Positions 5,819 through 55,636 are shown, numbered from the stretch's first letter. The stretch is 64,000 nt of DNA from Azolla caroliniana (GCA_043228905.1 JBHGNT010000014.1:5084001-5148000); one strand, 5' to 3'. A program made the numbers and translations. The notes: generated by a model from the sequence alone, not told the origin.

Positions 5819-5824
5819 AATTTA

Positions 5825-21955: not shown

Positions 21956-22322
21956 TGTTGATGAGTGGGGGTGGAGCCAAGAACGGCTCCACCCCCTTCC
22001 CAAGGGGGTTGAGCATGAGGAAGAGAGAGAGAGAGAGTAGGAAAGAGAGAAAGAAAGATATGTTAATGTCTTCTAAGGCCAAATTTGGCCCATGAGACAA
22101 TTGGTTTACAACAAAATGAGTATTTATCCAGTCATCATAACTAAAATAAAATAAAGTAAACATAGAACTTAAGCTAAAAGTGTTCTAGTAGTGTACAATA
22201 CGTGGTATACTTGATAAAGGAAGTGACTTTACACTAATCCTACTTTTATTTCCACCCAAGCCTCTCGAAAAGAAGTGGGGGGTCGAAGGGTTTTGATGTG
22301 GGTGTGACCCGTGGTTCCAATG

Positions 22323-25300
22323 TGTTGGGATTACGGTCCCTCCGGATGGGATGTCCGGAGATGAATGACGGCAAGCCCGGTTGCGGTTACGGAACCGGAT
22401 GATGAAGAGTACCCGGCATAAAGCCGGATGACGAGTACCCGGTTACGGATCCGGATGCTGAAGACCCCGGTTACGGAGCCGGATGCTGAAGACCCCGGTT
22501 ACGGAGCCGGATGACGAATGTACCCGGAGAGAGATTCGGATGCGGGGACATATTTGTGAATATGTTTGCTAAGAGCCCTTGAGGCTATATTTGTAAATAG
22601 CCCGAAAGTCATATATGTATAAATATGACTTAGGGCAAACAGTTTTATGTTGTTGCTCACTTTTATGAGAAGTGAGAGCAGCCAAGAGAGAGAGAGAGAG
22701 AGAGAGAGAGACGAAGAGGTCGACGCCTCTGTGTATTACCGCCGCCTGTGGCGAAGACAGTGAGCTCAAGGTTGTTGCCTTGTAGCTTCACCATTGTACA
22801 TCCCTGTCGATAGTGATAGTTGGAGTTAGAGGACTCCCGTGGTTTTTCCCATTTAGGGTTTTCCACGTAAAACACTCTGTGTACTCTTCTCTCTATAGTC
22901 TTCGTGAACTTTGTATTTTCTTGTTTTCTGGAGTTTATCCTATTCCTCAGTTGTGGCCGAGAGTTGGTTTGCAACAAGTGGTATTAGAGCGACGGTAACA
23001 CAGAAAATGGAAGGCGGCGGTAGTGGGCCTCCGGGCATGATGGTGCTGAATGCGCAGAACTACGCCGACTGGAAGATCAAGATGGAAGATCTTCTGATTG
23101 TTCGGGACCTGTACGAACCGATTGACAGGTCGGAAATACCGAAGGGGGTACTTGAGTCGGAGTGGAGGCTTCTGAACCGGAAAGCCGTTGCAACCATTCG
23201 GCAATACGTCGACGTGAGCGTTCTACAACACGTGGCGAACGACACCAACGCATATGAGATGTGGAGGAAGCTGTCGGGCCTCTACGAGAGGAAGAATGCG
23301 TTGAACCGGACCTCCCTGATGAGAAAGATAGTGAACCTCAAGTACCGGGACGGCGAGAGTATGGTGGAACACGTGAGCACGTTCATGGGATTCGTGAACC
23401 AGCTTGCGGCGATCAAGTTCCCGTTGGAGGATGCAATGCAAGCCATCATCCTGATGTGTACTTTGCCGGACAGCTGGGAGAACTTGGTGGTGACTCTCAG
23501 CACCTCCTGCACCGAAGATAACTTGTCCCTACAAACGGTAAAGACAAGTATTTTGAACGAAGAAGCGCGTCGGAGAGATAAAGAACCGGTCTCCGACTCG
23601 AAGGCGCTGCTTACCGAATCGGAACGGGGAAGACAATGGAACCGGAGTCCGCAAAGACGGGAGAAGTCGGGGACCCGGTCGCAGTCAAGAGGAAGGCCAA
23701 CATGTTTCCACTGTGGGAAGCCGGGGCACTTCCGGAAGAATTGTCGGCATTACCGAAAGGACAACGGAGCCGACGACACCGATTCGAAGAAGTCACCGGA
23801 GAGAAACGGTGCATACCGGGGAGCCACGGACCGGAGAGGTTCGGATCGGCGAGGGCAGGACCGGAAAGGAACGACGGCACTCGCGGCAAGTGAAGAAGAG
23901 ATAATGCTCATTACCGAAGAGAGGGAGCTGAACCTTGCCGGTGTAGAGATGACCTGGGTGGTCGATTCCGGAGCGTCGTTCCACTTGACCCCGGAGAAGA
24001 AATACTTCTCATCCTACACAGCCGGTGAGCACGGCTTTGTCCGGATGGGAAATGAAGGTACATGCCGGATTGCCGGCATAGGAGACGTGTGGCTGTTAAC
24101 ATCAACCGGATGCAAGATGCTGTTGAAGGATGTGCGACACGTTCCGGAGGTCCGATTGAACCTGATCTCGGCCGGGAGGCTAGATGATGAAGGCTACACG
24201 GGTAGCATCCGGAACGGTGTCATGAAGTTCAGCAAAGGGAGCCTAATAATGGCTCGGGCCCGGAAAGACAACACACTGTACCTGATGAATGCCCGGTTAT
24301 ATCCGGAAGAGCTGAATGTGGCAGCCGACACTGCCGGTGAGCTGTGGCACAAGAGACTGTGCCACATGAGTGAGAAGGGGATGAAGAGGCTTGCAGAAGA
24401 CAACCTTATTCCGGTGAAGCATGTGCACCTGGAGAAGTGCACCGACTGTCTGGCCGGTAAGCAAAACCGGACCTCCTTCCACTCAAGGCCACCGACGAGA
24501 CGTAGCGCACCATTGGAGTTGGTGCACACTGATGTGTGTCAGGTAGAAACGAAGTCACATGGCAGAGCCCAGTACTTCGTGACTTTCATTGATGATCACA
24601 GCCGGAAGCTGTGGACGGCGCCGTTGAAGACAAAGGACCAAGTGTTGTTCGTCTTCAAAGAACTCCACGCGAGAGTGGAAAGAGAATCCGGCAAGAAGCT
24701 GAAAGCGATACGAGCGGATAACGGAGGGGAATACCGGGGGCAGTTCCAGGAGTACTGTCGCTCGAAGGGAATCCGGCTCGAGTTTACTGTGCCGAAGACG
24801 CCGGAACTGAACGGGCTGGCCGAGAGGATGAACCGGACCATAATGGAGAGGGTCCGGAGTATGCTGGCGCATGCGAAATTACCCAAGGGGTTTTGGGCTG
24901 AGGCAATGTCGACGGCGACATACGTGATAAACAGATCACCCTCAGTACCTTTGGACGGAGACACGCCGCAGAAAGTGTGGACCGGTAAGGAAGTGTCCTA
25001 CCGGCATCTGAAGGTGTTCGGGTGTCTCGCTTACGTGCATGTGGCAAAGGACCGGAGAGGAAAGCTAGATCCAAAGACCCGGCCATGCATATTCCTCGGT
25101 TACGGCAACGACGAGTTCGGCTACCGAGTATGGGACCCGGTCGACAAGAAGATATTCAGGAGTCGAGACATCATCTTCATGGAGGACAAGACACTCGCCG
25201 ACTTGGAGTCGGAGAAGAAGATGAAGAGCTCCAAGTCGACCGGTGAGGATAAACTCTACGAGGAGCAGTCCCGACCGGCAAGGGACCGGTTAGCACTCGA

Positions 25301-27750
25301 GGATCCGGCCGAAGACGGTGAAGAAACAGAACCGGCCGAAGAAGAAGATGAAAATGATACCGGAACCGGCCCCAATCCCGAAATGGATTCGGATGAAGAA
25401 GAAGAATCGGAAGAACCGGTTACCGAAGCTCCCGAACGGAGATACCCTCTAAGAGAGAGAAGGGCCCCCCGGAGATTTCCGGAACCAGAGCACGTGCTGC
25501 TAACCGACGAGGGGGAGCCGGAGAGCTTTGAAGAAGCAAAGCATGACACCCAGAGCCGCAGGTGGTTAAGCGCCATGCAGGACGAGATGGATTCCCTGCA
25601 TGAGAACCACACATATGAACTTGTGGAGTTGCCGAAAGGAAAGCGGGCACTTCGAAACAAGTGGGTGTTCAAGCTGAAACCGGGAGATGCCGGAAACCCC
25701 CCGAGATATAAAGCTAGGATCGTAGTGAAGGGGTTCCAGCAGAAGAAGGGCGTCGACTTCGACGAGATATTTGCCCCGGTAGTGAAGATGACCTCCATCC
25801 GGACGGTGCTGAGCATAGCGGCAAGCATGGACCTCGAGGTAGAACAGATGGACGTGAAGACGGCATTCCTTCACGGTGACCTCGAAGAAGAGATCTACAT
25901 GCAGCAACCGGAAGGATTCGAGAAGAAAGGGAAGGAGCACCTGGTATGCCGGTTGAAGAAGAGCCTTTACGGACTGAAGCAGGCTCCCCGGCAATGGTAC
26001 CGGAAGTTCGACTCCTTCATGACCGACGAGGGGTACCTCAAAACGCAGTCTGACCACTGCGTGTTTGTGAAGAAATTCGAAGGAGGAGACTTTCTAATAC
26101 TCCTCCTGTACGTGGACGACATGTTGATCGTCGGACGGGACCAGGTCAAGATACGGATGCTGAAGAAGGCTCTTCATCGAACCTTCTCAATGAAGGACTT
26201 GGGTCCGGCGAGACAAATACTAGGGATGCACATCATCCGGGACCGGAGCAAGAAGCAGTTGTGGCTGTCACAGGAGAAGTACGTGACAAAGGTGCTTAAA
26301 CGGTTCAACATGTCGGAAGCAAGACCGGTCGGATCGACCCTTCCGGCAAACTGCAAGTTGTCCAACAAGCAAAGTCCCAAGACAAAGGCTGAAAAGGAGG
26401 ATATGATGAAAGTGCCGTATGCCTCAGCCGTCGGGAGCTTGATGTATGCCATGGTGTGTACGAGACCGGACATAGGATATGCAGTCGGAGTGGTGAGCCG
26501 GTACATGAGCAATCCCGGCAAAGAGCATTGGAACGCGGTCAAGTGGATACTACGATACCTGAAGGGCACGGCAAACGTGTGCCTCCGATTCGGCTCCGGT
26601 AAGCCCGAACTCGACGGCTTTACCGATTCGGATATGTCGGCTGATGCAGATACCAGCCGGTCCACATCAGGGTATGTGATGACCTATGCAGGGGGAGCCG
26701 TTTCGTGGCAGTCGAGGCTGCAGAAGACGGTTGCGTTGTCAACCACGGAGGCGGAGTACATGGCAGCTGTTGAAGCCGGCAAGGAAATAATATGGATGAA
26801 GGACTTCATTAGAGAGCTCGGTATCCAGCAGGAGGAGTACCGACTCTACTGCGACAGTCAGAGTGCCATCCATCTTGCAAAGAACGCGGCCTATCACTCC
26901 CGGACGAAGCACATCCAGCGAAGATATCACTGGATCCGGGAAAGGATAGAAGACAAGGAGTTCGTGCTGACGAAGGTCCACACGGACGAGAACGGGTCGG
27001 ATATGCTGACCAAGGTGCTCACACCCGACAAGCTGGAAGCATGCCGGAAGAGGATCGGATTGGAGAGACATCCCATGCCGAAGTGAAGGGGGAGTTTGTT
27101 GGGATTACGGTCCCTCCGGATGGGATGTCCGGAGATGAATGACGGCAAGCCCGGTTGCGGTTACGGAACCGGATGATGAAGAGTACCCGGCATAAAGCCG
27201 GATGACGAGTACCCGGTTACGGATCCGGATGCTGAAGACCCCGGTTACGGAGCCGGATGCTGAAGACCCCGGTTACGGAGCCGGATGACGAATGTACCCG
27301 GAGAGAGATTCGGATGCGGGGACATATTTGTGAATATGTTTGCTAAGAGCCCTTGAGGCTATATTTGTAAATAGCCCGAAAGTCATATATGTATAAATAT
27401 GACTTAGGGCAAACAGTTTTATGTTGTTGCTCACTTTTATGAGAAGTGAGAGCAGCCAAGAGAGAGAGAGAGAGAGAGAGAGAGACGAAGAGGTCGACGC
27501 CTCTGTGTATTACCGCCGCCTGTGGCGAAGACAGTGAGCTCAAGGTTGTTGCCTTGTAGCTTCACCATTGTACATCCCTGTCGATAGTGATAGTTGGAGT
27601 TAGAGGACTCCCGTGGTTTTTCCCATTTAGGGTTTTCCACGTAAAACACTCTGTGTACTCTTCTCTCTATAGTCTTCGTGAACTTTGTATTTTCTTGTTT
27701 TCTGGAGTTTATCCTATTCCTCAGTTGTGGCCGAGAGTTGGTCTGCAACA
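22323..27750 (+). mobile_element. Intact, young Ty1/copia element (family A)
   Basis: 654-bp LTRs 22323-22976 and 27097-27750 (one difference noticed by eye); TSD CAATG; PBS TGGTATTAGAGC 22979-22990; PPT GAAGGGGGAG; single uninterrupted ORF. Confidence 0.98.
23007..27086 (+). CDS. Copia Gag-Pol polyprotein (1359 aa from ATG 23007)
   Basis: Zinc knuckle CFHCGKPGHFRKNC; protease VVDSGAS; GAG-pre-integrase WHKRLCH; integrase DNGGEY…NGLAERMNR; RT LYVDDML; RNase H TKHIQRRYH. Confidence 0.96.
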   Translation: MEGGGSGPPGMMVLNAQNYADWKIKMEDLLIVRDLYEPIDRSEIPKGVLESEWRLLNRKAVATIRQYVDVSVLQHVANDTNAYEMWRKLSGLYERKNALNRTSLMRKIVNLKYRDGESMVEHVSTFMGFVNQLAAIKFPLEDAMQAIILMCTLPDSWENLVVTLSTSCTEDNLSLQTVKTSILNEEARRRDKEPVSDSKALLTESERGRQWNRSPQRREKSGTRSQSRGRPTCFHCGKPGHFRKNCRHYRKDNGADDTDSKKSPERNGAYRGATDRRGSDRRGQDRKGTTALAASEEEIMLITEERELNLAGVEMTWVVDSGASFHLTPEKKYFSSYTAGEHGFVRMGNEGTCRIAGIGDVWLLTSTGCKMLLKDVRHVPEVRLNLISAGRLDDEGYTGSIRNGVMKFSKGSLIMARARKDNTLYLMNARLYPEELNVAADTAGELWHKRLCHMSEKGMKRLAEDNLIPVKHVHLEKCTDCLAGKQNRTSFHSRPPTRRSAPLELVHTDVCQVETKSHGRAQYFVTFIDDHSRKLWTAPLKTKDQVLFVFKELHARVERESGKKLKAIRADNGGEYRGQFQEYCRSKGIRLEFTVPKTPELNGLAERMNRTIMERVRSMLAHAKLPKGFWAEAMSTATYVINRSPSVPLDGDTPQKVWTGKEVSYRHLKVFGCLAYVHVAKDRRGKLDPKTRPCIFLGYGNDEFGYRVWDPVDKKIFRSRDIIFMEDKTLADLESEKKMKSSKSTGEDKLYEEQSRPARDRLALEDPAEDGEETEPAEEEDENDTGTGPNPEMDSDEEEESEEPVTEAPERRYPLRERRAPRRFPEPEHVLLTDEGEPESFEEAKHDTQSRRWLSAMQDEMDSLHENHTYELVELPKGKRALRNKWVFKLKPGDAGNPPRYKARIVVKGFQQKKGVDFDEIFAPVVKMTSIRTVLSIAASMDLEVEQMDVKTAFLHGDLEEEIYMQQPEGFEKKGKEHLVCRLKKSLYGLKQAPRQWYRKFDSFMTDEGYLKTQSDHCVFVKKFEGGDFLILLLYVDDMLIVGRDQVKIRMLKKALHRTFSMKDLGPARQILGMHIIRDRSKKQLWLSQEKYVTKVLKRFNMSEARPVGSTLPANCKLSNKQSPKTKAEKEDMMKVPYASAVGSLMYAMVCTRPDIGYAVGVVSRYMSNPGKEHWNAVKWILRYLKGTANVCLRFGSGKPELDGFTDSDMSADADTSRSTSGYVMTYAGGAVSWQSRLQKTVALSTTEAEYMAAVEAGKEIIWMKDFIRELGIQQEEYRLYCDSQSAIHLAKNAAYHSRTKHIQRRYHWIRERIEDKEFVLTKVHTDENGSDMLTKVLTPDKLEACRKRIGLERHPMPK

Positions 27751-27860
27751 CAATGTAGAGAGTGCCCTAGCCATGGCTTCTAAGCGGTGTAGCTCACGTT
27801 CCCTTATTTTCATTATTGCTTCCACACCACGTCGAGTTGCTTTGAAACCCGGCATGCGAG

Positions 27861-30800
27861 TGTAGAAAGTAGCGTGCGGAAGCAAGTATGAAGACAGAAC
27901 AGAGGAAGGAAACTCAGGTTCAATGGAGAGCTTAGGCTTACACGGTATACGTGGGAGAGACAGAGAGAGAAACACAAAAAACTATATTCAACAATAATAC
28001 TCAATCTCTGTACATAAGACGTGCTCAGTGAGCACTTTTATACAAGTCCTAAAAGGACTGACCGAAGTACTGACAGTACTTCAATGCTCATCAAGAGCCC
28101 CTACACTAACTCCCAAATATATTCCTCATGGAATATCTTTCCTAACGACCTCCCGGTTTATGTACTCGGCCTAACCGATCGGTCCCAACCGATCCGGTCC
28201 TCGGCTTCTTCAGCCGATCCGGCCGATGTTGAGCTTGTCTCTCAACACTCCCCCTCAAGCTCAACTTGAGGCTCTTCGGGATCTTCACAGCACCGGTTCC
28301 TCCTGGCTTCTCGCCTCGCTCGCGCTCCTCGACCTATTCGACTCCGCGCGCTTCGACCCTTCTGGTCGGTTTGTCTGCTCATGCGGCCCTTATCAGCTCT
28401 TCTCCTGTTGCGGTGTTGACGCTTCTCCTGCTGCCTTTTCTTCCGCTTGGGCCTCGGTTGATTCAACGTGTCTGAATCAAACATCCGAACCGACTCGGCT
28501 ACCTCCGATCGGTCTTTGCTCTCGTCCAAGTTGGCTGTCTCCAACTCGTCTTCGGTCTTCTCGCCCTCGATGGCGTTATCTTCCCCATGCGCGGTTGGCT
28601 TCGGCTCTCTCCTTCGGTTGCTCCCCTTCTATCCTCTTCCGAACTTTTCCACTGGTCCGCCCTCGGCTTCTTCAGCCGATCCATCTTCAACCGAGTCAAC
28701 AAACGAGTCAACCGACTCGGTGTCATGGTCACCGCTCCTTTCCTGCTGCCTTGCTTGGTCGTTCGGGACTATTCTCCCCCTCAAGCTCGGCACGTCGAGG
28801 TGACGCAACCCGAGCGTACCTGAGAATTGCCGCAACTTGTCCAGACCAAGAGGCTTTGTGAAGATGTCGGCAGTCTGCCGATCCGTCGGAACGTACTGAA
28901 GTTCGACTTCACCGGAAAGGACACGCTCACGGACGAAATGGTAATGCACCTCAATGTCCTTGGTTCATGCGTGAAAGACGGGGTTCTTCGCGAGTTGGAT
29001 GTTGCTAAGGTTGTCGCAGTAGATCGTCGTTGGATCGGACACCTCCTCTTGCAGGTCCTTAAGTAGCCGCTTCAACCATATGGCTTCGCATGTCGCGACA
29101 GCCGCTCCTCGGTACTCAGCTTCGGTGCTCGACAGTGCAACTGTCGGCTGCTTCTTACTGCTCCACGCGATCGCGGCATTCCCGAGGGAGAACGCGTATC
29201 CAAACGTGGATCGACGATCGGCGGCGTTGCCAGTCCAATCAGCATCGGTGTAGCTGACTAACTGCGCGACTGTACCGGTCCGATATAGCAGTCCCCGGTC
29301 CTTAGTGCCGTTGACATACCGAAGTATGGGTTGCGCACACTGAAGGTGCTCCTCGGTAGGTGGCGCCATGAACTGACTGATCACCCCGACCGGATAACTG
29401 AGGTCGGGTCGGGTGATGGTCAAGTATATAAGGCTTCCGACAATTTGTCGGAATCTCGTCGGGTCGCATACCTTTCCCGTATCGGGACGAAGCTTGAAGG
29501 TTCTCTCCAGAGGAGTCGAGATGGACTTACAGTCGGCCATCCCGAGTTTGAAGAGCATACTCAGCACGTAGTGACGTTGGCTGATCAATATGCCTTCGGG
29601 GGTACGGATCACTTCGATCCCGAGGAAGTAATGAAGGTCCCCCAGATCCTTCATGTCGAACGATGCCGCAAGTTGGAGCTTCACGCGATCGATTTCACCG
29701 AGGTCGGCGCCAGTGATGACCAAGTCATCAACATACAGTAAAATACTAACCGGTCCGAGTCGACCTTTCCGGATGAACAGGGAAGAGTCCGATTTTGACG
29801 TGACAAAGCCCATCCGACGCAGTTGTTGCGTGATCTTCGCGTTCCAGGCGCGCGGGGCTTGCTTCAGTCCGTAAAGGGACTTCTTCAGTCGACATACTGC
29901 CGAGGAGTTCGTTCCGGAGTGAAATCCAGGGGGCTGTACCATGTACACCTGTTCCTCAAGGTCACCTTGCAGGAACGCATTCTTTACATCCATATGATGT
30001 AAGTGCCACCCCTTGGCCGCGGCTACTGCGAGCAAAACACGAACGGTTGTCATTTTTGCGACCAGCGCAAACGTCTCATCGTAGTCGATGCCGTGTTTCT
30101 GCGCGTAGCCCTTTTCCACTAGCCGAGCCTTGTACCGGTTGACCGAGCCATCGATGGTGTACTTGACTTTGTACACCCATCTACACCCGATCAGCTTCAC
30201 ACCCTTCGGTGCGTCAACCAGGTCCCAGGTCTCGTTCTCCGCCAATGCGTGCATCTCTTCCTCCATCGCGGCGCGCCAATTCGCATCCTTCGCCGCTTCT
30301 GCGTAGCTCTCCAGCTCACGCACTTCCGCTACATGAGTAATGTGCGCATAATGATGCACCATGTACTCATTGTATCCGAACCGCACAACTGGGTTCTTCT
30401 GGCGGGTAGATCGGCGTAATCTCACATTAGCCGATGTCGAGGCCTTCTCGGTCGACGCGGTCTTCATCTTTAAAGACCCGTCACCCATTCCCTCAGAGTC
30501 GGACTCGCGTCGGTCTGACTCGTTCCTTTCCATGCCGGAATCCGACACCTTCTTCTTCCCTTTCTCCTTGCGCGTAAGCCGTCTACTCGGCTTCCTGCGC
30601 GGGGATTGCACGACCGAGTCTCCACTACTCGCTGGCTCTTCATCGGACTGGTCGTACCGACTCAGTCGTCCAATTGGTCCACTTAACCGGAGTGAAATCG
30701 GACTCTCTTCGCGGGTCTCGATTTCTGGCTCATCCGGAGGCATCTCAGCCTCACTGACCTCATCGTCAGAACTCATATTGGAGTCGGGGTTCCGAGTCGA

Positions 30801-33526
30801 GGGCAGGTACCAGGACGCGGACTCGTCAAACACAACGTCGCGGCTGACACGCGCTTGTTTGGTGCGAGGGTTATAGCACTTATAACCCTTCTGCTCGTTC
30901 GAGTAACCGACCAAGATGCACTTCTCGGCCTTTGCGTTCAGCTTCCTCCTTTTCTCCTTCGGTACATGCACATACGCAATGCTACCGACCACCCTCAAGT
31001 GTCTCAAGTTCGGCTTTGTTCCGAAATATAGCTCGTGCGTCGACACTTTGTCTCCAATCCGGTTCTGGATGTATACCGCGGTCCTTACCGCCTCGGCCCA
31101 GTAGAACTTGGGCAAGCTCTTCTCCTCCAGCATTGCCCGTGCCGCTTCCACAACTGACCGATTCTTTCTGTCGGCCACGCCGTTCTGCTCTGGCGTGTAT
31201 CTACAACTGAATTCGCGCCGAATTCCCATTTGTTGTAGGTAACCGTTGAATTGACTAGAAAAGTACTCTTTCCCGCCATCCGACCGTAGACACTTGATCT
31301 TTCGTCCCGTTTCGGCTTCCACGAACCCTTTGAGGTCCCAGAAACAGTCGAAGACTTCGCTCTTCCTCTCAATGAGGTAGATCCATGTGTGCCGCGTGTG
31401 GTCGTCGATGAAGGAGACGAAATATCGGCTCCCACCAAGACTAACATTTTGTGCCGGCCCCCACACATCCGAGTGTATAAGGTCGAGCTTGTTCCGGCTC
31501 CGGTTTCGCTCGTTGGGGAAAGGAAGTCGGTGTTGCTTCCCGAGCTGGCAGGCTTCACAAATTTGTGCCTTTCGGCCACTAAACTTGGGCAATCCGAACA
31601 CTACCTATTTCGATTGCAGATCTTGAAGCCGCTGGTGGTTGACGTAGCCTATCCGCTTGTGCCACAAGTCGATGTCTGACTCGGTCTTTTGTCCCTTCGC
31701 GAACATTGCGGTGCCGCCGTCAGTGGAGTCGAGGATGAACATCCTCCCGTCTCTGCGTCCTTGCGCAATCACATGGCCTTCTTCCTCAATGAAGCACCCG
31801 AGGTGTGTAAACCGAACCTCCATCCCTTGGTCGACGATCTGTCCGACCGAGACCAAGTTCTTCGTGATTGTCGGAACGTGCAGCACGTTCTTGAGTTTCC
31901 CTTTCTGCCCGACATGGCTAAGGGGAACTTCTCCGACATTCGCGATCGGATGCGGAGTGTCGTCTCCTATTGCGACTACTCCAGGTTGTATCGGTTTTTC
32001 AAGGTACGAGAACCACTCCTTATGGCTCGTCATGTGGTTTGACGCGCCGGAATCTACGTACCACACCTCGTCCAATCTCGGGGTGCTCAGTTTCATTGAG
32101 TTTGCTTCGTGTCTCGTCACGAAGACAGACCCTTCTCCGGCTCTCCCGGAGTCTTCAGCGTACTGCGATTGCTGCCGATTTCCCTTGTCGGTATGTCTGG
32201 AGCTGTTCCCGGAACCAGTTCTCTCCGAATCGGCACGCTTCTTCCACCACTCACTTTCCCTATGGTCTTTCTTGCCACAGTACCAACACTCCGCGATGGC
32301 CTTCCCTTGCCGGTTCTCATCGCTTCGACTCCCCCTATTTCCGGAGGGTCCGGAGTTGCTGTCGGCATCACTTTGGTGCCTTCTTCCTTGATCACGTCAG
32401 ATGCCTCCATTGCGCGCCGACTCACCTCGTCCGCCACGACCACGGGGCCTTTCTCCCTCTGTGTACAACATCTTGCTGTCGGTGTGCGTGCTCGTCGACG
32501 CACCCGCGTGGTTCTCCTCTACCAAGAGCATCGACTGTAAGTCGAAAAAGGACAGCGTATTCTCCCGGGTACACACGGCCGTTCGGAACGCTCTGAACTT
32601 CGACACCAAACCTCCGAGACAGATCTGGACCATCTCGCTCTCCTCGATGTTCACCTCTATGGAGGCGAGCGAGTCGCAGATATCCTTGATCTTCGAGGTA
32701 TAGTCCGCCACCGACAAGTCGCGTTGTCGTAGGTTGCTCAACTCCTGTCGGAGCTGAAGCTTCCTAGCTATGGTGCTTGTGGCGAAAATCTTCTTCAGAT
32801 TTTCCCACGCACCCTTCGGCGTCTTTGCATCCCGAACATAGCTCAATAGTTTTTCGCCCACACATGACGCGAAGCAGTATAATACCCTGCTCGCCGATTG
32901 CTCCCACGACGGGAAGTCTCTGTGTGTCGATTCGGGTGCCGCGTCATTAGCTCCTTCGACATAACTCCAGTAGCCGTGCCCGAGCAAGTACTGGTGCATC
33001 TTGTAGGACCAAGAGGCGTAGTTGGTTCTGTCGAGCTTCTCTGTTGGAAGCGAGCTCGCCATGCCTCTATCCATCGTTCTTCTTGTTCTTCTTCGTCAAG
33101 CTGTGTCGGTTGCAGAGAGGTTCTCAACCCTCGCGCTCTGATACCATGTAGAAAGTAGCGTGCGGAAGCAAGTATGAAGACAGAACAGAGGAAGGAAACT
33201 CAGGTTCAATGGAGAGCTTAGGTTTACACGGTATACGCGGGAGAGACAGAGAGAGAAACACAAAAAACTATATTCAACAATAATACTCAATCTCTGTACA
33301 TAAGACGTGCTCAGTGAGCACTTTTATACAAGTCCTAAAAGGATTGACCGAAGTACTGACAGTACTTCAATGCTCATCAATACACTAACTCCCAAATATA
33401 TTCCTCACGGAATATCTTTCCTAACGACCTCCCGGTTTATGTACTCGGCCTAACCGATCGGTCCCAACCAATCCGGTCCTCGGCTTCTTCAGCCGATCCG
33501 GCCGATGTTGAGCTTGTCTCTCAACA
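27861..33526 (-). mobile_element. Full-length copia-B element with nonsense mutations
   Basis: LTRs 27861-28247 and 33147-33526; PBS TGGTATCAGAGC ending 33146; PPT 28248-28258; imperfect TSD GCGAG/CCGAG; gag-pol broken by stops near 32397, 31605 and 28965. Confidence 0.96.
28629..33074 (-). pseudogene. Copia-B gag-pol pseudo-ORF with acidic C-terminal extension
   Basis: ORF pieces 32397-33074, 31605-32120, 28965-31601 and 28629-28949 lie in the same frame, separated by stops. Confidence 0.9.
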
Positions 33527-39274: not shown

Positions 39275-39336
<62 letters not shown>

Positions 39337-41587: not shown

Positions 41588-41634
<47 letters not shown>

Positions 41635-44600: not shown

Positions 44601-45328
44601 TACAGCCTCTTGTGCCACAGCTCACCGGCAGTGTCGGATGCCACGTTCACTTCTTCCGGACATAACCGGGAATTCATCAGGTACAGTGTGTTGACCTTCC
44701 GGGCCCGAGCCACAATCAGGCTCCCTTTGCCGAACTTCATGACACCATTCCGGATGCTACTCGTGTAGCCTTCATCATCTAGCCGACCGGCTGATATCAG
44801 GTTCAGAAGAACCTCCGGAACGTGTCGGACATCCTTCAGCAGCAACTTGCATCCGGTTGGTGTTGTCAGCCACACGTCTCCTATGCCGACAATTCGGCAT
44901 GTTCCTTCATTCCCCATCCGGACACAGCCGTGATCACCGGCTGAGTAGGATGAGAAGCATTTCCAATCCAGGGTAAGATGGAACGACGCTCTGGAGTCGA
45001 CCACCCAGGTCATCTCATCGCCGGCAAGGTTTATCTCACTCTCCTTGGTGATGAGCATCAACTCTTCTTCACTTGCCGCGATTGTCGTCGTCCCCTTCCG
45101 GTCCGTTCCCCTCCAGTCTTTACCGTTCCGGTCCGGTATCCGCTTCGAATCGGTACCGTCGGTTTCCTTGTCCTTTTGGAAATGCCGACAGTTCTTCTGG
45201 AAGTGTCCCGGCTTGCCGCAATAGAAGCAAGTAGGTCTCCCCCTTGACTTTGACCGTGTCCCCGACTTTTCCCGGTTCTGGGGACTACGGTTTCTTTGTC
45301 TTCCGCGTTCCAATTCGGTAAGGAGTGT

Positions 45329-46558
45329 TGTCGTGAAGATCCGTCACTACGCGCGGATCGTGAGGCGGAACCGCCGGGGTTCTGAACCGGAAGGATTCAA
45401 AGTCGGTACAAGCTTTGGCGTAAGCTTTAGCGAGAAAGTACTTAAGATAGATTGGGAAAGAGAGAAGTTGAGATTAAACGATTGAGAGAGATTGATTGAA
45501 CTTTTAACTTTAGATTTAAGAAACAAGTTACACGATCAATTTGATAACGAATTTCTTCTTAAAAAAAACCGTGTGTTTTCTCCTCCCCCTTCCTTCTTTT
45601 ATAGATGCTCTCATGCATATGATGCATGTGAGGGTACAAGACATGCATAAATTGCATGTTTGCCATTTGGCGCTTATGTATTACATGTGGTGCATGATAA
45701 CCATGTCACTCATTTTAGCTCTCATATATGAGAATTTACATGTAAAAGTACAATGATAGAAATATAATTTCAACTAAATAGCATGGCTTAATGGTAAGCC
45801 AATTGACTACTAACTTGGAGGTGCAAGGTTCGAATGCTTACTTGCCCTCCTTGTATATGTATATATATGTATATATATTTATATATTTATTTATCGGACG
45901 CCGGTTCCTCGGATGCCGCCAAATACCGGTGCCGCCGCCAGATGCCGTCGGTTACCGGTGCCTCACCAGATGCCGTCGTCTTACCGGCGCCGGATACCGG
46001 TGCGTCGCCGGTTGCCGCCGGATGTCGTCTACTCACCGGCGCCAGATATCGGTGCCTCGCCGGATACCGGTGCCTCGCCGGATGTCGTTGTCTCACCGGC
46101 GCCGGATACCGATGCCGTCGGTTGCCGGTGCCTCGCCGGATGCTGTCGGATCACCGGCTCCATCGTCGGTCCGGTTTTGGTTGGCCAAAACCCTTTACGA
46201 GTAGCTAGCCCACCTCCACTCTTAGTTCAAGTTACCTTGAACTCTCTATGCTCCACACATAGACACAAAGATAATATCTTTTGCTCTACCTCATATATGA
46301 TGAGAGCCGTATTTGTCGTGCCTACGTGGGATATCTCACAATTTTCTCTTTTCCTTTCACAAACTTTATACCCTCATATCTTGACATTTAGTTGTCCGTT
46401 TCTCGTGTAATAAAGTGCATTCGAAACCTCCATCATTTTGTACTTAGATATTAAATTTATTTAAAACGTTATCTTCACAATCATTGTATTATGTGATTCA
46501 TACTCGATTTCGTACGTTTTATGGGATTTTCACACTATTGCCGAAAATCTTCACGACA
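45329..46558 (-). repeat. Solo LTR (gypsy-like) inserted in copia A' gag
   Basis: 12-bp inverted termini TGTCGTGAAGAT…ATCTTCACGACA; flanks GTGT/GCGC consistent with a mutated 4-bp TSD; host gag resumes across it; internal GC-rich ~18-bp repeat array 45895-46175. Confidence 0.82.
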
Positions 46559-47450
46559 GCGCTTTGGAGTCGGAGCTCGTATCTTTATCTTTTCGACGCG
46601 CCTCCTCATCTAGCAAGCTCGACTTTACTCTTGCTAGGGATAACCGCTTTCCTTCCGGCCCGGCGTTGCCCAAAGTGACAACCAATGTCTACCAGCTATC
46701 CGGGAGGGAACCGAGCAGGAGTAGCGCTAGTACCTCGTCGGTGAGAGGTACTTCCAATGATGTTGCCTGGTGTATCAACCCCTGGAAGGCATTCATGTGC
46801 TCCGCCATGTTGGAGCCATGTACCGGAGTCTTACTAGCTTCCGGAATACCGAAACTTGATTAACAGCATTTTTGTTTTGAAACTTTATGCCGATCTTCTC
46901 CCAGAGCTCATGAGCCTTGCTCTCTTCATTGAAGTTGTTGTACAGGCTCATGTCGATGAAGCACTGTATGTACGCCGTTGTCTTCATGTGCATCACCTCC
47001 CATATCGTGGCGTCGATTTTGTCCGGTCTCTTGTCCCCGAACTGAACCGGCAGCCAGAGGTCTTTAACCACGAGCATGTCCCTCATCTTCGACTTCCACA
47101 CCGAATAGTTGGAGCCGGTGAGCTTGAACAGGCCTCCCAACGAATCGTCCATTTTCTATGTCGTTTCGCTCTGATACCACTTGACAGGAACTGCACGCTC
47201 CCTATACGCAACGCTCGGCCAAAACCGAGCTTAGAATCATACATAGAAAAATGGGAGATAAATGCACGACACAGTGAAGAGAAGAGTACACAGGATGTTT
47301 ACGTGGAAAACCCAAATTAGGGAAAAACCACGGCATCCCACAGGCTGCAAACTATCACTATGTTAGAATGTACAACAGTGAGTTCACGGAGGCAACGACC
47401 TCGTGCTCACGATCTTCGCCACAGGCGGAGGTTTCAACAGAGGCAACGAC

Positions 47451-47489
<39 letters not shown>

Positions 47490-47656
47490 CACGGTTACAC
47501 ACTCTCTCTCTTCTTGCACCAACAAGAATAACAACCACACTAAAAGTTTTCCCTAAGTCATATTTATACTAATATGACTTTTCGGCTATTTACAAATATA
47601 GCCATGATGGACTCTCAGAAACATATTTACGAATATGTCCCTTCATCCGGTGAGCA

Positions 47657-47985
47657 CTCCTCACTGGGTCTGCACCATCCAGCTCTCCGTAGCCGGGTAC
47701 TCCTCATCCGGTTCTCACCGGGTCTGCACCATCCGGCTCTCCGTAGCCGGGTACTCCTCATCCGGTTCTCACCGGGTCTGCACCATCCGGCTCTCCGTAG
47801 CCGGATACTCCTCATCCGGTTCTCACCGGGTCTGCACCATCCGGCTCTCCGTAGCCGAGTACTCCTTATCCGGTTCTCACCGGGTTTGCACCATCCGGCT
47901 CTCCGTAGTCGGGTGCTCCTCATCCGGTTCTCACCGGGTCTGCACCATCCGGCTCTCTGTAGCCGGGTACTCCTCATCCGGTTTG
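47657..47985. repeat. 54-bp tandem array (6 units) in U3 of the copia A' 5' LTR
   Basis: Unit CCGGGTCTGCACCATCCGGCTCTCCGTAGCCGGGTACTCCTCATCCGGTTCTCA; only one unit in the sister LTR. Confidence 0.93.
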
Positions 47986-49680
47986 TTCATCAGCACTGTT
48001 CTTCTCCCTTCCCATCCGGAGGGACCTGTCTCCCAACATGATTGCCCCATCAATTTACAACTGGGAAAAGAGCCACCATGGGGACCAATCTACAATTTGT
48101 CACCAACCGAGCTAGAAGTCCTTTGAGCCTATATAGAGGAGAATTTGGAAAATGGTTTCATTTGGCATTCGAAATATCCAACCGGCGCACCCATTTTCTT
48201 CATCAAGAAAAAGGATGGATCACTTCGTCTCGTTGTAGATTAATGTGGCTTGAATAAGGTCACCATCAGAAATAGGTATGCACTTCCCCTTATCTCAAGT
48301 CGTTTAGAACGGATCAATGCTGCAAGGTTCTTCACGAAGATCGACTCGCATATAACCTCGTACGGATCCGACCAAGAGATGAATGGAAGACCGTCTTTCG
48401 CACCAGATATGGGCACTTCGAGTATACGGTCATGCCGTTCGGCCTCACTAATGCGCCGACAATCTTCCAGCACATGGCAAATGATATATTTTGGGTGCAA
48501 CCAGGTGGAATTTCTGGGCTATGTCCTCTCCTCGGAAGGCATCTCCATGCATCCAGCTAAGGTCAAAACGGTGGTAGAGTGGCAAACTTTGCGTTCCTTG
48601 CGAGATGTGCAATGCTTTTTAGGCTTTGCCAATTTCTACCGCAAGTTTATATAGGATTACTCAAAGCTTGTTGTGCCTCTCACACAACATACTAAGAAGG
48701 GACAATCGTTCGTTTGGTCTGAAGAAGTGGACATGACTTTTGAGACTCTTAAGAAGGCATTTACATATGGTCCTATTCTAGCTCACGTTGATCCAGAAAA
48801 ACCATTCATCATGGAAGCGGACGCATCGGATTTCGCATTGGGTAGCATTCTGTCACAACAAGGTAATGATGAAAAGCTACATCATGTGGCTTTCCACTCA
48901 CACAAGTTTGACGCCGCCGAAATCAACTATCAAATTCATGATAAGGAGCTATTAGTAATAGTGGACTCTTTTACGAAATGGAGGCATTTTCTAGAGGGAT
49001 CCTCTCATCAAGTCATTGTATTCAGTGATCACAAAAACCTTGCCTACTTTTAGAGTGCTCGTGTGTTAAATCGACATCAAGCTCGGTGGGCCCAATTCCT
49101 CACGCGTTTTGACTTCAAAATTAAATATCGTCCGGGGAAGCACCAAGGGAAGGCAGATGCATTATCACGGCGTTCGTATCTAGCACCACGTCCCGACAAA
49201 CCAGCTTTCGATAACCAAAAGCAAGTAATCTTGGGACCGGCACGACTGCAAGCAACACAGGTCTTCGGCATGCCCTTGGATTCCCACGTTATCGATATCA
49301 TACGTGAGGACTTGAAGACGGATGCTTTCGCCCAAGCCATTCTAGCACAAATTGATCCCTCTCGAGCATCTTGTTCACAGTTGCAACAACCAGGTACGAA
49401 CTATCGACAATTCGAATGTCACGATGGATTACTATTCTTTAAGAAACTCTTGTATGTTCCTAATGGTTCTTGCCGCCTTCGAGTAGTCCAAAACTGTCAT
49501 GACACATATACAACTGGGCATTTTGGTAGTACTAAGACATTAGTTTTAGTACAACGATCATTCTAGTGGCCCTGTATGCGACAATTTGTCGAAGATTTTG
49601 TTCGGACTTGTGATACATGTTGCAGAGCAAAAATGCCAAAGCATCATCCATATGGTTTATTAGAACCATTACCAATTCCA

Positions 49681-52600
49681 AGCTTTATTCAATTTTTCTC
49701 TATAAAGTATGCCACCATTTCTATCCAAGGTTGTACACCTTCAAAATGAATCGAATGAAAGTAAATTGACGAGCCACCATATGCTCATATAGATTCAATA
49801 TTGATGCCCCACCAAGACGCTTCGGAGTATAAACATGATCCTATGCCAACCATGACAAGGCACTTTTCCCTTTTCTTTTCCATAACATCATTCGCATCGA
49901 GCGTGACAACATTTCAAGAGCTTTCTTTGACCATGGGAGCAAAGGAAGATAATACGATACCATAGAGACCATAATCGATTGGACCACCTTAAGTCGTACA
50001 TGAAAAGGCCAAAATTGAGACCTCCAATACATAAACTTATCCTCCAACCTTTTAGATACCCATTCAATAAGTTTCACATGAGAAATTTCCACCCCAATTG
50101 GATATCCAAGATGACGACAAATCATACCATGATGTACTATCCTTCCTGACCACCCCAACCCTAACACATCTTGTTTTGTACATGAAATGAGGACAGATTT
50201 ATGTATATTAATTCTCAACCGTGAAGCATTTGAAAACAATTCCCACACATCTTTTGTCTTACGAATATTTTCCCGATTAGGTGCCAAAAACATAATATGG
50301 TCATCTACGAGAGCTCGAACAATAAATGGCTTCCCTGATGGCAACCTTAGTCCAAGCAATTCTTCCTCCATAGCCATATTGTGTAACTTAACAAGAATAG
50401 GATGTGTAACAATAGTGAATAGTAAAGGACTTATCGGGCATCCTTGTCTAACTGACCTCCGAATAGAAATCGGTTGTGTTACTCCTCCATTAAACATCAC
50501 ATGTGAAACTGAATCCTCCCCTAATGTGTATATCAACTTAGACATACAATCACCAAAACCCATATGAGACATCAATTGATTTGTAAATGACCAATACACA
50601 ATATCATAGGCTTTCTCGATATCCAATTGTAGCAACACTAAATCTTGTTTAGACTCCTTTGCATAGTCAATTGACATTTGAACATTTAAAATATTATGTA
50701 AAATGTCTCTTTTTGCTAAAAACACATATTGAGCATTATGAATAATAGAAGGCAAAACCTTATGCAACCTATTGGCCATCACTTTTGCAAAAATCTTGTA
50801 CATTCCCCCCATCAATGAAATGGGCCTCCATTGAGCAAAGGAAGATAGAGAAGGCACCTTCGGCAAAAGCTTGATCAAACCAATCTTCCAAGAATGAAGC
50901 ATTTCCCCCTGATGTCCACACCTTCTGAAATAAAACCGTAAAAGGCCCCTTTAACTTAATCACATATTTCTTAAAGAGATCATGTGTTAATCCATCCCAC
51001 CCAGGACTCTTATCATTAGCAAGATGTGACATGACATGTTCCACCTCATCCTCTAAAATATTAGCGTCTAATGATTGTGCCACATATGTGATACATGATT
51101 TTTCACTCCATTAAAAAATACATCTCTATCCTTTTTAACATTATCATCGATACACACTTGTACATCCAACAATTGTGTATAATATTCTATGCATTTCTTC
51201 ACAATTTCTTGAGGATCAGAACACATGATACCATTTTCCTCTAACCTTACCACATTATGTCGTGCATGTGATTCATGAAGGTCATGAAAAAACTTATGTG
51301 ATTGACAATTATCATCATCCACTTCTTGTCTTAGACTAGCATGTTGATCATTTTTTGCCGTTAGGTCACGCATCGCAGAAATTAATACCTCTTGATATCC
51401 CATCAACTCTACATCCATTGTCCAATAAGTTAACAATGAGTTGCATTTATCAAGCAAATTAACTAGGAGACTTAATTTCTTTCTCCTTTTAAAAGCATGA
51501 TGAATTCCGTAATATCTAGTTAACCTCTGAACATTTGCAACAAATACTTCCCATGCTTCATACCCATCAAATTGAACATGATAGGCAAATGCATCAATCA
51601 ATTGACACATATAGGCATGGAAGACCTCATGATCCAAAAATGATGAATTAAAAAACAACGGTGGTTTTCCTAAAAGCTCATGAAAACCTTTAATTGAGTG
51701 GTGATTGAACTCAAAAATTAATGGGAAATGATCTGATATAATTGACCTATAAGACATTGAAATATCCAAAATCTCTGGTAAAAAACCTTCGGTATACATT
51801 ACATACATTCGATCCAACCTACTCCAAGTATCCTTATATTGAGCCGATTGAAAGGTATAACCAGGTTCATCTCCCTTGATCCATTTCCATACATCCCTTA
51901 ACATGACTTCAGTCTCAAAATCTCCCCATTCTTGAGCCTCTGGTCCATCCATAATAGAGTGGATAGATGTTGATTGATCTGTCTCACAACAAACATTAAA
52001 ATCTCCCATCAATAAACCTGGTCTACCATTATCAAGCACTGAGTTTAGAGATCTCCATAACAACTTTCATTCTTGTGAAACATTTGATGCATACACACCA
52101 ACTAACCAAAGAGCTTGCCCTTCATAACATATCTCTACCACAATAAATCTTCCAAATTCATCTGAACAATTACTTTTGGGTGAAATTTATCTCTTATAAA
52201 CATGACAATCCCAGAATAATCCCCATGAACCTTGCCAGCATAACATAATGTATAACCCTTAGAATAACTAATTAAACTAGCATTACAATGATCTTTATGC
52301 TCTACTGCACATAAAACATCTCATTGCTCACTTAACACAATCCTCCAAACCTCATGCATTCTAAATCTAGAACACAATCCCCTCACATTCCATGTGGTGA
52401 TCTTCATACTTTATTTTTTCCTTTTATTCGAGAAATCTCCTTCTCCTTCACTACTAATGTTTCTGCCATATCCTGAAATAAATCCCCTAAGATTGCATAT
52501 GAATTACTATGGGAATGCAAAACTCTAGATCCCAATGGCTCCTCATGTGAACGAGGCACCGATTTCCGTGTATTCCAAGGAACATACAAATTACCTTTAT

Positions 52601-54000
52601 TATCAAAAGATAATTTCTTTGGATATTCCTCTTGACGAGCCCATGGTTTATTCCGCATGGGATGTGTCGGTGTGACCTTCTCCATAGATATATTATGCCC
52701 AACCTTTTTATTAGACTTCTTTATCTTTCCAGAAACTATTGACCATTGTCCTTCATCCTCTAGAGTCTTTCCATCCTTTTCATTCACAATTTGTGGTTCC
52801 TTTGTTTGCTCTGAAATTGTCAAAGCTTGAATCTGATCATAAATTGTAGGCTCTTCATGTACCACTTCCACTACATTATTTCTTTTTTGAGGACACTCAA
52901 CCATAAAATGCCCCAACACACCACAATGGAAACAATGTCCTGCAAATGTACCCCATTTAAGCCGAAAGTACATAGGCAGCATACTAGAGCATGCAATCTG
53001 TAAACAACTTGGCCTCTTTATAGCAGTATTCCAAAGAATACACATCCGATATCGATTTTGAGCATTAGCACTAGGAGGCACCAAGATCTTTCCCAACTTT
53101 TCTGTCGCTGACCGTAATATTGGCCAAACCACTGAATATGTGCACTCTACCTCAACCCATACGGGACACTCTTGCTTTAATATATCTTGGTATTCCACTA
53201 GTGGTCTCCACGGAACAATATGAACCAAACTTTTCTCATAAAAAACTGGCAATTTATTGAGTAATTTCTCTTTATACTCTTGTGATACCAAAACAACCTC
53301 ATAAAATCCACGAGGACCGGCATAAACATCCTAAACACAATCAGCTTGTTAAATCCCACGTAACCATTGTTTGACCCTCCAAAGGAAAGGTATCTTTCCT
53401 ATGAAAAACAATATGACCCCTTTATCACAAAAATTAGCAAATGAGCCCAAAAACTCCTTATTGTCTATTTCTACCTTAGCCACTTCATCGTCAACTTTCA
53501 CATTCTCCCTTATACAATCTTCCATTAATATATTTGCCATGCATTATAAATGTTCCCAATGACTATCATCTTTCTCAATATCATCTTGTCGCATTGCATC
53601 AACGTAAGACATGTCATTACTATTATCTCCAATACATCGTTTTCTTTTACCATCCCCTCTTGGGCTTGATACTAACTCAACCATGTATGCATCCTTTGAA
53701 GAATTTGGAGACTCATCCATATTCATAAAAACACTACCATCCATATGACAAGAAATAGGAGAGAGCTCACTTACAAGTAATTGTGTTGGAGAAGGAATCA
53801 AAGCAAGCGATCATGAGATGCATGCAATCGAATGGAATTTTTACTCATAACATTCTACCAAGACCACCAAATTATACATGCAGATACTCTTTAGAAAGCT
53901 CTATGTGCAGGCTTCGAAACGAGCTAAAGAACAAAGGAAACGGACATCATAGCAAGAAGATACATCAAAATTAGTGTTTGGCCTTCTCCAACATCTCCGA
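49681..54000 (-). mobile_element. L1-clade LINE, degenerate, 3' end lost
   Basis: ORF1 52404-53800 with CFHCGVLGHFMVEC knuckle; ORF2 starts MKITTWNVRGL ~52405; APE (MGDFN, SRLDRMY, SDH); RT (LDIEKAYD, VRQGCPISP). Confidence 0.92.
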
Positions 54001-54007
54001 ACTTTGC

Positions 54008-54009
<2 letters not shown>

Positions 54010-54062
<53 letters not shown>

Positions 54063-54156
54063 GTCTTACACACTCCCTTCCTCTTAGTACTAATTCTCAT
54101 AGTACTTTCCTTCTCTAGTACTAATTCTCTCTCTGATTTTAGTACTATTCTTGGCG
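54010..54156 (+). repeat. 3' part of an LTR related to 38979-39397
   Basis: (CT)n followed by CGTG…CCTCTTAGTACTAATT…AGTACTATTCTTG, as at 39330-39397. Confidence 0.65.
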
Positions 54157-54464
54157 CAAGCTTCTGAAATTTGATTTGGTGCCCTCAGGTTATTGTAATT
54201 GGGTTAATGCCCTTCCATTTTTAAATTTACTCATATGCTCTCTCTTTCTTCTCTCTTGTAACTCCTCCTCTTGCTTGATTTCTTCTCCTCTAATTTTCTG
54301 TCTTAAATTTCTGTTCCTATTCTGTCATCGTCTTCTATCTTCCTCTTGTTTCTTCCTCTTTTGGTCAACTTCACCATCTTCTTCTTCTTGTTTGTCTGTC
54401 TGTTTGTCTATCCCGGTCATCTCAGTCTGTCCACTGTGTCTTTGTACGGCTATCTCCACTGACT

Positions 54465-54930
54465 GTTCGTGGCCGTCTGTCCGTCTGTTGTCTGGCTGCT
54501 ATCCGGATGCCACTTGGCCGTTGTTGGCTACTGTTTGGCCAATCGTTGTTGCTATTCAACTGCCACTCGGCCACTGCCGACAACTATCCAGCTAATTGCC
54601 ACCACTCAGCCGTTGTTCAGCCATTGTCTGGCCATTATTCGGCCAATCGTTGTTGTTCGGCCACCATTCGGCCAATCGTCATTGTTCAGCCATTGTCCGG
54701 CCATTGTTTGGCCACCACTTGGCCATTGTCGACCACTATCCGGCCAATCACCGCCATTGTTCGGCTATTGTCGGCCACTTCTCGGCCAATTACCGTTGTC
54801 CAACCATTGGCCGCTACTATGTGGCCGCTGTCGGCCACTGTTTGAGCATCGGTCGCTGCTATTTTGGCCTCCACTCAGCCACTGTTCGGCCGCCACTCAG
54901 CCATTGTCCGGCCAATTGTTGCCATCAGAG
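54465..54930. repeat. Degenerate GGCCA-rich minisatellite
   Basis: Recurrent GCCACTGTCCGGCCAATCGT-like units. Confidence 0.75.
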
Positions 54931-55636
54931 GTCTCACTGAAAGATATCTTCTCCTCTTTCATGGAATCCATAGCTGCTAGCTTACGGTACTGATAATAAG
55001 GACTACGATGAAGACAAAAATTAATTACATGGAAAGGATGGTTTTAATCAATTGCCGATTAAAATGCAGACAAATTGTGTTTTCTTTTTCAATTATTACG
55101 AAACAGAAGGAATTTCCCAATTCTCTTGAGAGGAGGGTGAGTGGGATTGCTGCAAATATAATTGCAGGTGTACATGGTCTATATATACATAATGTATGGT
55201 TATTGATTATTGCAGAGGAGGGTGGTCTATATATATGTGTGTTATACATGGCATTGAAAGCGTATGAGTGTAGTGTGTTGGTACGTGGATAGATACGTAA
55301 AGTCAAAGTCTTTGTATTAAAAGTCATGTGTAAGTGTATGTGCAAATGTGCACATAAGTGTGAGTATATTAATATGGTAAAGTGGGTCTAGGTTGTTACA
55401 AGGTTATGTAACTAACCTACAAACCCCATTGTATGTTCTTGATTTGGAACCCTCATGTAATGTACCTGTATAACCCCACCCAAGGGGCATGAATGGATAT
55501 ATAGAAATAGTAGAAGTTTTTGCCTCTCAATATTTGTATATCTCTCTCTCTTTCCCTCTCCCTCTCTCTTCCTCATGCTCAACCCCCTTCAGAGGGGGGT
55601 GGGGCCGTTCTTGGCTCCACCCCCCACCCATCAACA

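What the first reader, a model, noticed from the sequence alone, without database searches (positions are those of the whole stretch)
21956..55636. 33.7-kb unit with ~400-bp LTR-like inverted terminal repeats and a perfect 5-bp TSD
Seen: a copia-B pol reading GRKAQ|VCEA is cut by an insert flanked by CCCAA on both sides. The insert ends TGTTGATG…/…CATCAACA are reverse complements. After removing the LINE at 22062-37528, the left repeat (21956-22061 + 37529-~37825) matches the right repeat (~55235-55636) over ~400 bp. The repeat looks like an LTR R-U5 (TATA-like box, CT microsatellite, CA end), with both U5-like ends facing outward. Established: LTR retrotransposons have direct repeats; DIRS have inverted repeats but no TSD; Ginger transposons have TGT-starting TIRs and 4-5-bp TSDs; recombination between two inverted solo LTRs would not leave the two halves of one target site on the outside. 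Inference: either a non-autonomous integrase-mobilised DNA element built from two inverted LTR ends, or an aberrant integration using two U5 ends. No transposase is visible; the non-nested core is only ~2 kb.
Basis: partly seen in the sequence, partly recalled or inferred. Interest (0 to 1): 0.85.

Follow-up and report, generated by a model that had tools for sequence, protein, structure and literature searches.

The report
Retrotransposon inserted by two tail ends
A small non-coding plant retrotransposon, since bloated to 34 kb by later insertions, carries its two terminal repeats facing opposite ways under one insertion scar; its relatives have ordinary same-direction repeats, so it is likely a one-off copying accident that integrase still pasted in, not a new kind of DNA transposon.

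Summary
The structure is real: inverted ~400-bp repeats (4% diverged) and a perfect CCCAA duplication inside a copia pol gene; 93% of the 33.7 kb is later nesting and the core is ~1.5 kb. The repeat is the LTR of a ~2.4-kb non-coding LTR-retrotransposon family. In 19 related loci, 0 show an inverted pair, 5 show direct LTRs around a 1.5-1.9-kb interior, and 15 of 20 tail ends lead into a primer-site motif. In runs holding this DNA the other LTR end also borders unrelated DNA. TATA polarity puts both U5 ends outward. This copy keeps the 3' LTR and interior, lacks the primer site and normal 5' LTR, and joins an inverted LTR through a 13-bp filler; contigs of 4 of 4 runs bridge that junction. Best reading: a stalled reverse-transcription product inserted by two U5 ends, dead for RNA copying. 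A maize inverted TRIM pair under one TSD is in print, and this scan noted similar insertions on other DNA, including this genome. Side feature, also noted earlier by the scan: a tRNA-end-like cassette sits where the polypurine tract belongs.

The parts
21951..21955 (+). Target-site duplication CCCAA, left copy, in the gag-pre-integrase region of the host copia
21956..22061 (-). Normal 3' LTR, R/U5 part (CT repeat, GC hairpin, CATCAACA end outward)
   Evidence: hairpin folded on the right copy, z -3.55
22062..37528 (-). Later LINE inserted in the LTR's CT-rich part, itself holding copias 22323-27750 (TSD CAATG, K2P 0.0015) and 27861-33526 (K2P 0.013)
37529..37819 (-). Normal 3' LTR, U3 part; TATATAA at 37599-37593; starts TGTT at 37819
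37820..37862 (-). 4-nt spacer plus conserved ~40-nt hairpin cassette ending GTGCCA, at the place of the polypurine tract; its last 10 nt mirror the family's primer-site motif; likeness to a tRNA-Arg 3' end is recalled, not shown by a tool
   Evidence: Rfam gave no tRNA hit
37863..38237 (-). Family interior, 3' part, colinear with relatives (331 of 432 columns to the L015 unit, shuffles max 75 vs score 448)
38238..54156 (+). Later nested block (TSD-like CAAGT/CAAGC): gypsy LTRs and broken gag-pol, copia 41319-48038 (TSD TGATT, K2P 0.021), LINE fragment ~49690-53990
54157..54924 (-). Family interior, middle part with CGGCC-rich repeats, colinear with relatives (54600-54923: 226 of 359 columns, score 171 vs shuffled max 79; 54167-54448 only weakly above shuffles)
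54925..55224 (-). Low-copy segment Y at the place of the family's variable 5' region; paralogs stop matching at 55213-55224
   Evidence: no match in the 19 loci
55225..55239 (+). 13-bp filler repeating 55177-55187, then TG spacer; no primer-site motif
55240..55636 (+). Inverted LTR: U3 start (TGTT) inside, U5 end (CATCAACA) outside; TATA box changed to TGTATAA
55637..55641 (+). Target-site duplication CCCAA, right copy; host copia integrase region follows

Best explanation
This is one copy of a non-coding LTR retrotransposon family whose 5' LTR and primer site are replaced by an inverted LTR, likely because a reverse-transcription product that stalled before the second strand transfer was inserted by a partner element's integrase through two U5 ends. 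Shown: the LTR identity, the direct-repeat relatives, the single 5-bp TSD, the missing primer site, the filler junction. Inferred: minus-strand DNA ran from the 3' LTR through the interior and stopped in Y, short of the primer site; it was then joined at the plus-strand start (the TG just before U3) to a second LTR duplex, either by fold-back copying in the particle or by host end-joining after two half-products were inserted together. Both LTR promoters now point outward, so the copy is predicted to be unable to copy itself through RNA. Later insertions made up 93% of its length.
For: Relatives: 0 of 19 loci inverted; 5 loci with direct LTRs around 1475-1875 bp; 15 of 20 CATCAACA ends followed by the primer-site motif, 5 by other DNA. 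In the runs that hold this DNA the inner LTR end is preceded by the cassette (3 contigs each in X1, X2) or by at least 3 different unrelated flanks, as normal 3' and 5'/solo LTRs would be. Polarity: TAT[AT]TAA at one aligned spot on the right-copy strand in 12 of 13 LTRs covering it; a second clade member in the window has TATAAAA and its long ORF on the same strand, ending before its cassette. Junction: bridged in 4 of 4 runs (3 studies) at about single-copy depth; paralogs of Y go on with other letters at 55213-55224 in all 4 runs; the filler 12-mer occurs only here and 48 bp upstream. The two LTRs are each other's closest copies (289 of 306 vs at most 269 of 319 to others) and older than 3 of 3 dated nested elements. 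Precedents: PMC4717578 Fig. 2C legend; PMC2939329.
Against: The 19 loci are short (1-5 kb), collapse to about 13 distinct ones, are only ~73-90% identical to the window's LTR and may come from related species, so rare inverted copies would be missed. No whole genome was available. The outer junctions were not read-checked. The TG spacer is only 2 nt in TA/TG-rich filler. That Y paralogs lead on to a primer site and normal LTR was not shown. No gag-pol partner was seen, so polarity rests on TATA position and one ORF without a Pfam family.
Confidence: 0.62

Rival explanations
1. Snap-back at the mirrored sites: the finished minus strand ended in the 10 nt that pair with the cassette copy on the same strand, primed there and copied the LTR back, giving two U5 ends with the primer site intact; a later deletion with filler removed the primer site and 5' leader.
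For: The two internal-end motifs are complementary (16-17 of 24 positions, a 10-nt core) in 5 of 5 loci holding both; the product has exactly this end polarity; both LTRs would be identical at insertion (K2P 0.040).
Against: No primer-site motif at the junction or anywhere in the insert; the deletion would have had to stop within a few bases of the LTR start; no such product among 19 loci.
Confidence: 0.2
2. A normal direct-LTR insertion whose 5' LTR was flipped later by break repair using the 4-bp TGTT/AACA ends, with loss of the primer site.
For: Filler at the inner junction looks like break repair; both LTR ends share TGTT/AACA.
Against: Needs one break exactly at the LTR/TSD border and an exact U5 terminus placed there; homologous recombination between inverted LTRs cannot change which end faces out (reasoning).
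Confidence: 0.08
3. A non-autonomous TIR DNA transposon (Ginger/GingerRoot-like) built from two LTR ends and moved as DNA.
For: TG...CA ends, inverted repeats, 5-bp TSD; GingerRoot occurs in bryophytes and lycophytes.
Against: The repeat is a primer-site-flanked LTR in relatives; the inner end borders host DNA elsewhere; interior and junction are low-copy while the repeat is deep (depth is not a copy number); GingerRoot has 6-bp TSDs, 100-150-bp TIRs, mostly TA...TA; no transposase frame in the core.
Confidence: 0.06
4. Assembly artefact.
For: Outer junctions and left side not read-checked; the best run may be the assembly's own source.
Against: Exact TSD with in-frame host gene halves; inner junction bridged in runs of 3 studies, one labelled as another organism; the two LTRs differ at 15 sites plus indels.
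Confidence: 0.04

Closest known systems
[quoted passage not shown] 2016, PMC4717578; passages, section 8 with Fig. 2 legend, one supplement search; figure not seen)
   Same: Non-coding LTR retrotransposon, inverted arrangement, one 5-bp TSD; tandem arrays occur in the family here too (L001, L012).
   Different: There two small elements in 559 bp; here one interior plus one inverted LTR, no primer site, filler junction. Which ends face out in maize could not be seen.
Ty1 composite elements and non-Ty fragments inserted by Ty1 integrase (PMC2939329; abstract and passages)
   Same: Integrase inserts any DNA ending TG...CA with a 5-bp TSD; composites are ascribed to paused replication intermediates, mispriming and strand switching.
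   Different: Experimental yeast events with foreign DNA; no inverted-LTR genomic copy described in the passages read.
Non-autonomous LTR retrotransposons of 1.5-4 kb, 'long TRIMs' (PMC13570524, passages; PMC4717578)
   Same: Parent family: two direct LTRs, non-coding interior, variable modules, tandem copies.
   Different: A mirrored primer-like cassette stands where the PPT belongs; this copy has inverted LTRs.
GingerRoot / IS3EU and Ginger DNA transposons (PMC6839031, PMC10045372; passages)
   Same: TIRs with LTR-like termini, integrase-type chemistry, non-seed plants.
   Different: 6-bp TSD, 100-150-bp TIR, mostly TA...TA, own transposase, many copies; none holds here.
One-ended aberrant integration of HIV-1/ASLV (PMC5041404; passages)
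   Same: Host repair can join viral ends to viral DNA in either orientation.
   Different: Those events lose the short TSD; here both outer ends are clean integrase junctions.

Membership tests
Non-autonomous LTR retrotransposon (parent family) | Two direct LTRs with TG...CA ends | tested here: met
   5 loci with direct LTR sequence on both sides of a 1475-1875-bp interior; not met by the window copy itself
Non-autonomous LTR retrotransposon (parent family) | Primer-binding site behind the 5' LTR | tested here: met
   TGG-starting motif behind 15 of 20 U5 ends; tRNA-Arg assignment is recalled; absent in the window copy
Non-autonomous LTR retrotransposon (parent family) | Polypurine tract before the 3' LTR | tested here: not met
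   Conserved hairpin cassette there in 5 of 5 aligned stretches
Non-autonomous LTR retrotransposon (parent family) | No retrotransposon protein in the interior | tested here: met
   Only low-complexity frames in the core
Non-autonomous LTR retrotransposon (parent family) | Full copies flanked by different TSDs | tested here: inconclusive
   No locus spans a whole copy with both flanks; different host flanks seen at single ends
TRIM sensu Gao 2016 | Under 1,500 bp | tested here: not met
   Interior alone 1475-1875 bp plus two LTRs
GingerRoot / Ginger TIR transposon | TIRs outward with TSD | tested here: met
   (this copy only)
GingerRoot / Ginger TIR transposon | 6-bp TSD, 100-150-bp TIR (GingerRoot) | tested here: not met
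   5 bp and ~397 bp
GingerRoot / Ginger TIR transposon | Several copies with the same inverted ends | tested here: not met
   0 of 19 loci; junction at about single-copy depth; no genome-wide search possible
GingerRoot / Ginger TIR transposon | Autonomous partner with DDE transposase, no RT | not testable with these tools
   No whole genome; none in the core
DIRS | Inverted repeats without TSD, tyrosine recombinase (recalled) | tested here: not met
   TSD present; no recombinase among 21 + 12 frames scanned
OTA/Tat Ty3/gypsy (likely mobilising partner) | RT/RH/IN phylogeny | not tested
   No linked pol sequence found; non-Met PBS and extra ORFs fit non-chromoviruses per PMC6317226

The most novel reading that the evidence does not exclude
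Because this clade's primer site and its plus-strand cassette share the same 10 nt, its reverse transcription repeatedly yields inverted-LTR products with two U5 ends that integrase inserts, so the genome holds a class of ready-made TIR-like units, a live route from LTR retrotransposon to Ginger-like DNA transposon; the junction here, which keeps the spacer but no cassette base, would be a fossil of the tRNA-primed plus-strand start.
Probability: 0.12. Interest if true: 0.7.

Novelty: new member of a known kind. Interest (0 to 1): 0.3.

Why it matters
As a one-off it is a clean natural example that a plant LTR integrase can use two identical ends, and a warning that such copies look like TIR transposons to annotators. 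It adds a non-coding family to the clade with a tRNA-end-like cassette in place of the PPT and gives one weak, independent hint of where plus-strand DNA starts in that clade. It would matter much more if inverted copies proved recurrent in this clade.

Tried and rejected
Whole-genome search: none held. First read the 17-nt motif at 37824 as the PBS and the outward ends as U3 (notes); dropped after earlier scan notes prompted the TATA and ORF-strand tests. Viral contigs: 0 hits for two DNA patterns and one protein. 3 of 22 metagenome loci (L006, L016, L022) dropped as chance pattern matches. Rfam: no family in 5 loci, only chance hits at the cassette; ARAGORN 0 tRNAs. The PBS motifs were not found in the 5 held supplements of PMC6317226 (17,418 characters; the large tables may not be held). 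Protein searches did not name the host or the partner. First lay was swamped by the high-copy copia, so outer junctions were not shown. L015 has the clade's ORF on the opposite strand next to a 28-nt LTR stub; read as a junction into another element, it is a point not fitting the polarity argument. Nested gypsy LTRs could not be paired for dating. Paper searches for inverted LTRs with TSD or tRNA-primed plus strands: 0; 1, unrelated; 7; 2, unrelated; 0; 67, 15 listed, none with 'inverted LTR'; bioRxiv 10.1101/452573, part 1 of 2 read, covers direct three-LTR forms only.

Full report
Observation. The insert runs 21956-55636 between two CCCAA copies, inside a copia pol gene whose halves are colinear with an uninterrupted paralog in the window. 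The left repeat (21956-22061 and 37529-37819, split by a LINE) matches the reverse complement of 55240-55636 at 88 of 95 and 286 of 296 columns, K2P 0.040. Three nested copias date younger (0.0015, 0.013, 0.021). About 93% of the insert is nested LINE, copia and gypsy DNA; the rest between the repeats is ~1.5 kb without a recognisable protein.

What the repeat is. No genome was held, so I searched metagenome contigs with the outer-end motif: 22 loci, of which 3 had no further likeness and were dropped. The 19 kept fall into about 13 distinct groups. All LTR hits within a locus lie on one strand: 0 of 19 inverted. Five loci hold LTR sequence in direct orientation around an interior of 1475-1875 bp, some in tandem units. 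Of 20 CATCAACA-type ends, 12 are followed within 3 nt by a TGG-starting primer-site motif, 3 after a short duplication, 5 by unrelated DNA. The window's interior is colinear with one such unit. In runs that hold the window's DNA, the repeat is far deeper than the core (X1: 1349-6118 against 41-385; the tool warns this is no copy number), and the repeat's inner end is preceded either by the cassette or by at least three different unrelated flanks. So the repeat is the LTR of an ordinary-looking non-coding family of about 2.4 kb, and both of its ends are used at host junctions elsewhere.

Polarity. The interior of this family is bounded by mirrored motifs sharing 10 nt, so either could be the primer site. 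I first took the longer one (37824) as PBS. Earlier scan notes on coding relatives (unchecked) said the opposite, so I tested it. TAT[AT]TAA stands at one aligned spot on the right-copy strand in 12 of 13 LTRs that cover it, ahead of the CT repeat and the CATCAACA end. A second clade member in this window (61314 onward) has TATAAAA on the same strand and a long coiled-coil ORF ending just before its cassette, homologous to the ORF beside the cassette in L001 (36% identity, E 4e-16). One locus, L015, has that ORF on the other strand beside a 28-nt LTR stub. No gag-pol was in reach. Its likeness to a tRNA-Arg 3' end is recalled; Rfam and the held supplements did not confirm it.

What is abnormal. 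Where relatives have variable DNA, primer site and 5' LTR, the window has segment Y (54925-55224), 13 bp of filler, TG, and an inverted LTR. The primer-site motif is absent from the insert. Contigs of 4 of 4 runs (3 studies; X1 and X4 are one sample and may be the assembly's source; X3 is labelled another organism) bridge 55157-55282 or further with 0-1 differences, at depths of 1 to about 2.4 times nearby single contigs. Paralogs of Y in all 4 runs stop matching at 55213-55224 and go on with other letters. The filler 12-mer occurs only at 55224 and 55176 in 64 kb, the mark of a templated join. So this is not a clean integration junction of a solo LTR into Y, and the junction looks unique.

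Mechanism. Both outer junctions are exact integrase products at U5 ends (established: integrase makes the 5-bp TSD; Ty1 integrase accepts any TG...CA DNA and inserts composites made from paused intermediates, PMC2939329). An intermediate that has not made the second strand transfer has only a U5 end, a double-stranded 3' LTR and a minus-strand tail. I infer that such a tail, stopped in Y, was joined to a second LTR duplex at the plus-strand start, by fold-back copying or by host repair after two half-products were inserted together (0.62; the two cannot be told apart). Snap-back through the mirrored 10 nt followed by a later deletion gives the same end polarity (0.2). Post-insertion flipping (0.08), a TIR transposon (0.06) and misassembly (0.04) fit worse. 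One-ended retroviral accidents lose the short TSD (PMC5041404), unlike this case. With both promoters facing out the copy is predicted to be dead for RNA copying.

Known kinds. GingerRoot has 6-bp TSDs, 100-150-bp TIRs, mostly TA...TA ends and a transposase (PMC6839031; PMC10045372): not met. The parent family falls among 1.5-4-kb non-autonomous LTR elements (PMC13570524; over the TRIM limit of PMC4717578). Gao et al. 2016 list a PCR-validated maize TA-TRIM of two inverted TRIMs with TSD CTTCA (section 8 legend; figure not seen). Other searches found nothing closer; the library lacks most subscription papers. Earlier scan notes describe two-U5 or two-U3 insertions in other genomes and one copia case in this genome, and the PPT-less cassette in coding relatives here; these are unchecked leads, not support.

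Verdict. Real, explained, most likely a single event: a new member of a known kind, interest 0.3. The open question worth a genome-wide count is whether the mirrored primer sites make this clade prone to such insertions.

Noticed in passing
window 61314-64000: Second member of the same clade: a different LTR (TGTTA...TAACA, 61770-61314 on the minus strand), a cassette variant at 61773-61812, and a broken ~880-aa coiled-coil ORF with 6 unnamed homologs (67-89% identity) and no curated Pfam family. The best entry point to the autonomous partner.
   Followed up: partly
L012 1850-1885 (as flipped), L002: A subfamily carries a different 10-nt motif (GTGGTCGCCA side) at the primer-site position with the same G-run beside it; by recall it fits another tRNA-Arg isoacceptor, which would be covariation in favour of true tRNA priming.
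   Followed up: no
L013 end; window 22055-22108: Another copy of this LTR with a different flank carries the same LINE 3' end at the same place behind the GA/CT repeat (90% over 154 bp): the LINE family may target these repeats.
   Followed up: partly
L001, L002, L004, L012, L015: Tandem LTR-interior-LTR arrays with different interiors, like TA-TRIMs; may partly be short-read assembly collapse.
   Followed up: partly
L004 695-1072 (as flipped): The family's variable region holds a 126-aa gene-like frame in one subfamily and unrelated DNA in others: possible capture of host sequence.
   Followed up: no
window 22323-27750: Very young intact copia: 1392-aa single ORF with all domains, LTRs differ at 1 of 654 sites; best database relative only ~69-72% identical.
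   Followed up: partly
window 1-5700 (minus strand): Broken gypsy with a DUF4100-like region and a 274-bp tandem duplication at 4245-4802.
   Followed up: no
window 47660-47983: Six 54-bp tandem units inside one LTR of the copia 41319-48038, absent from its other LTR.
   Followed up: no
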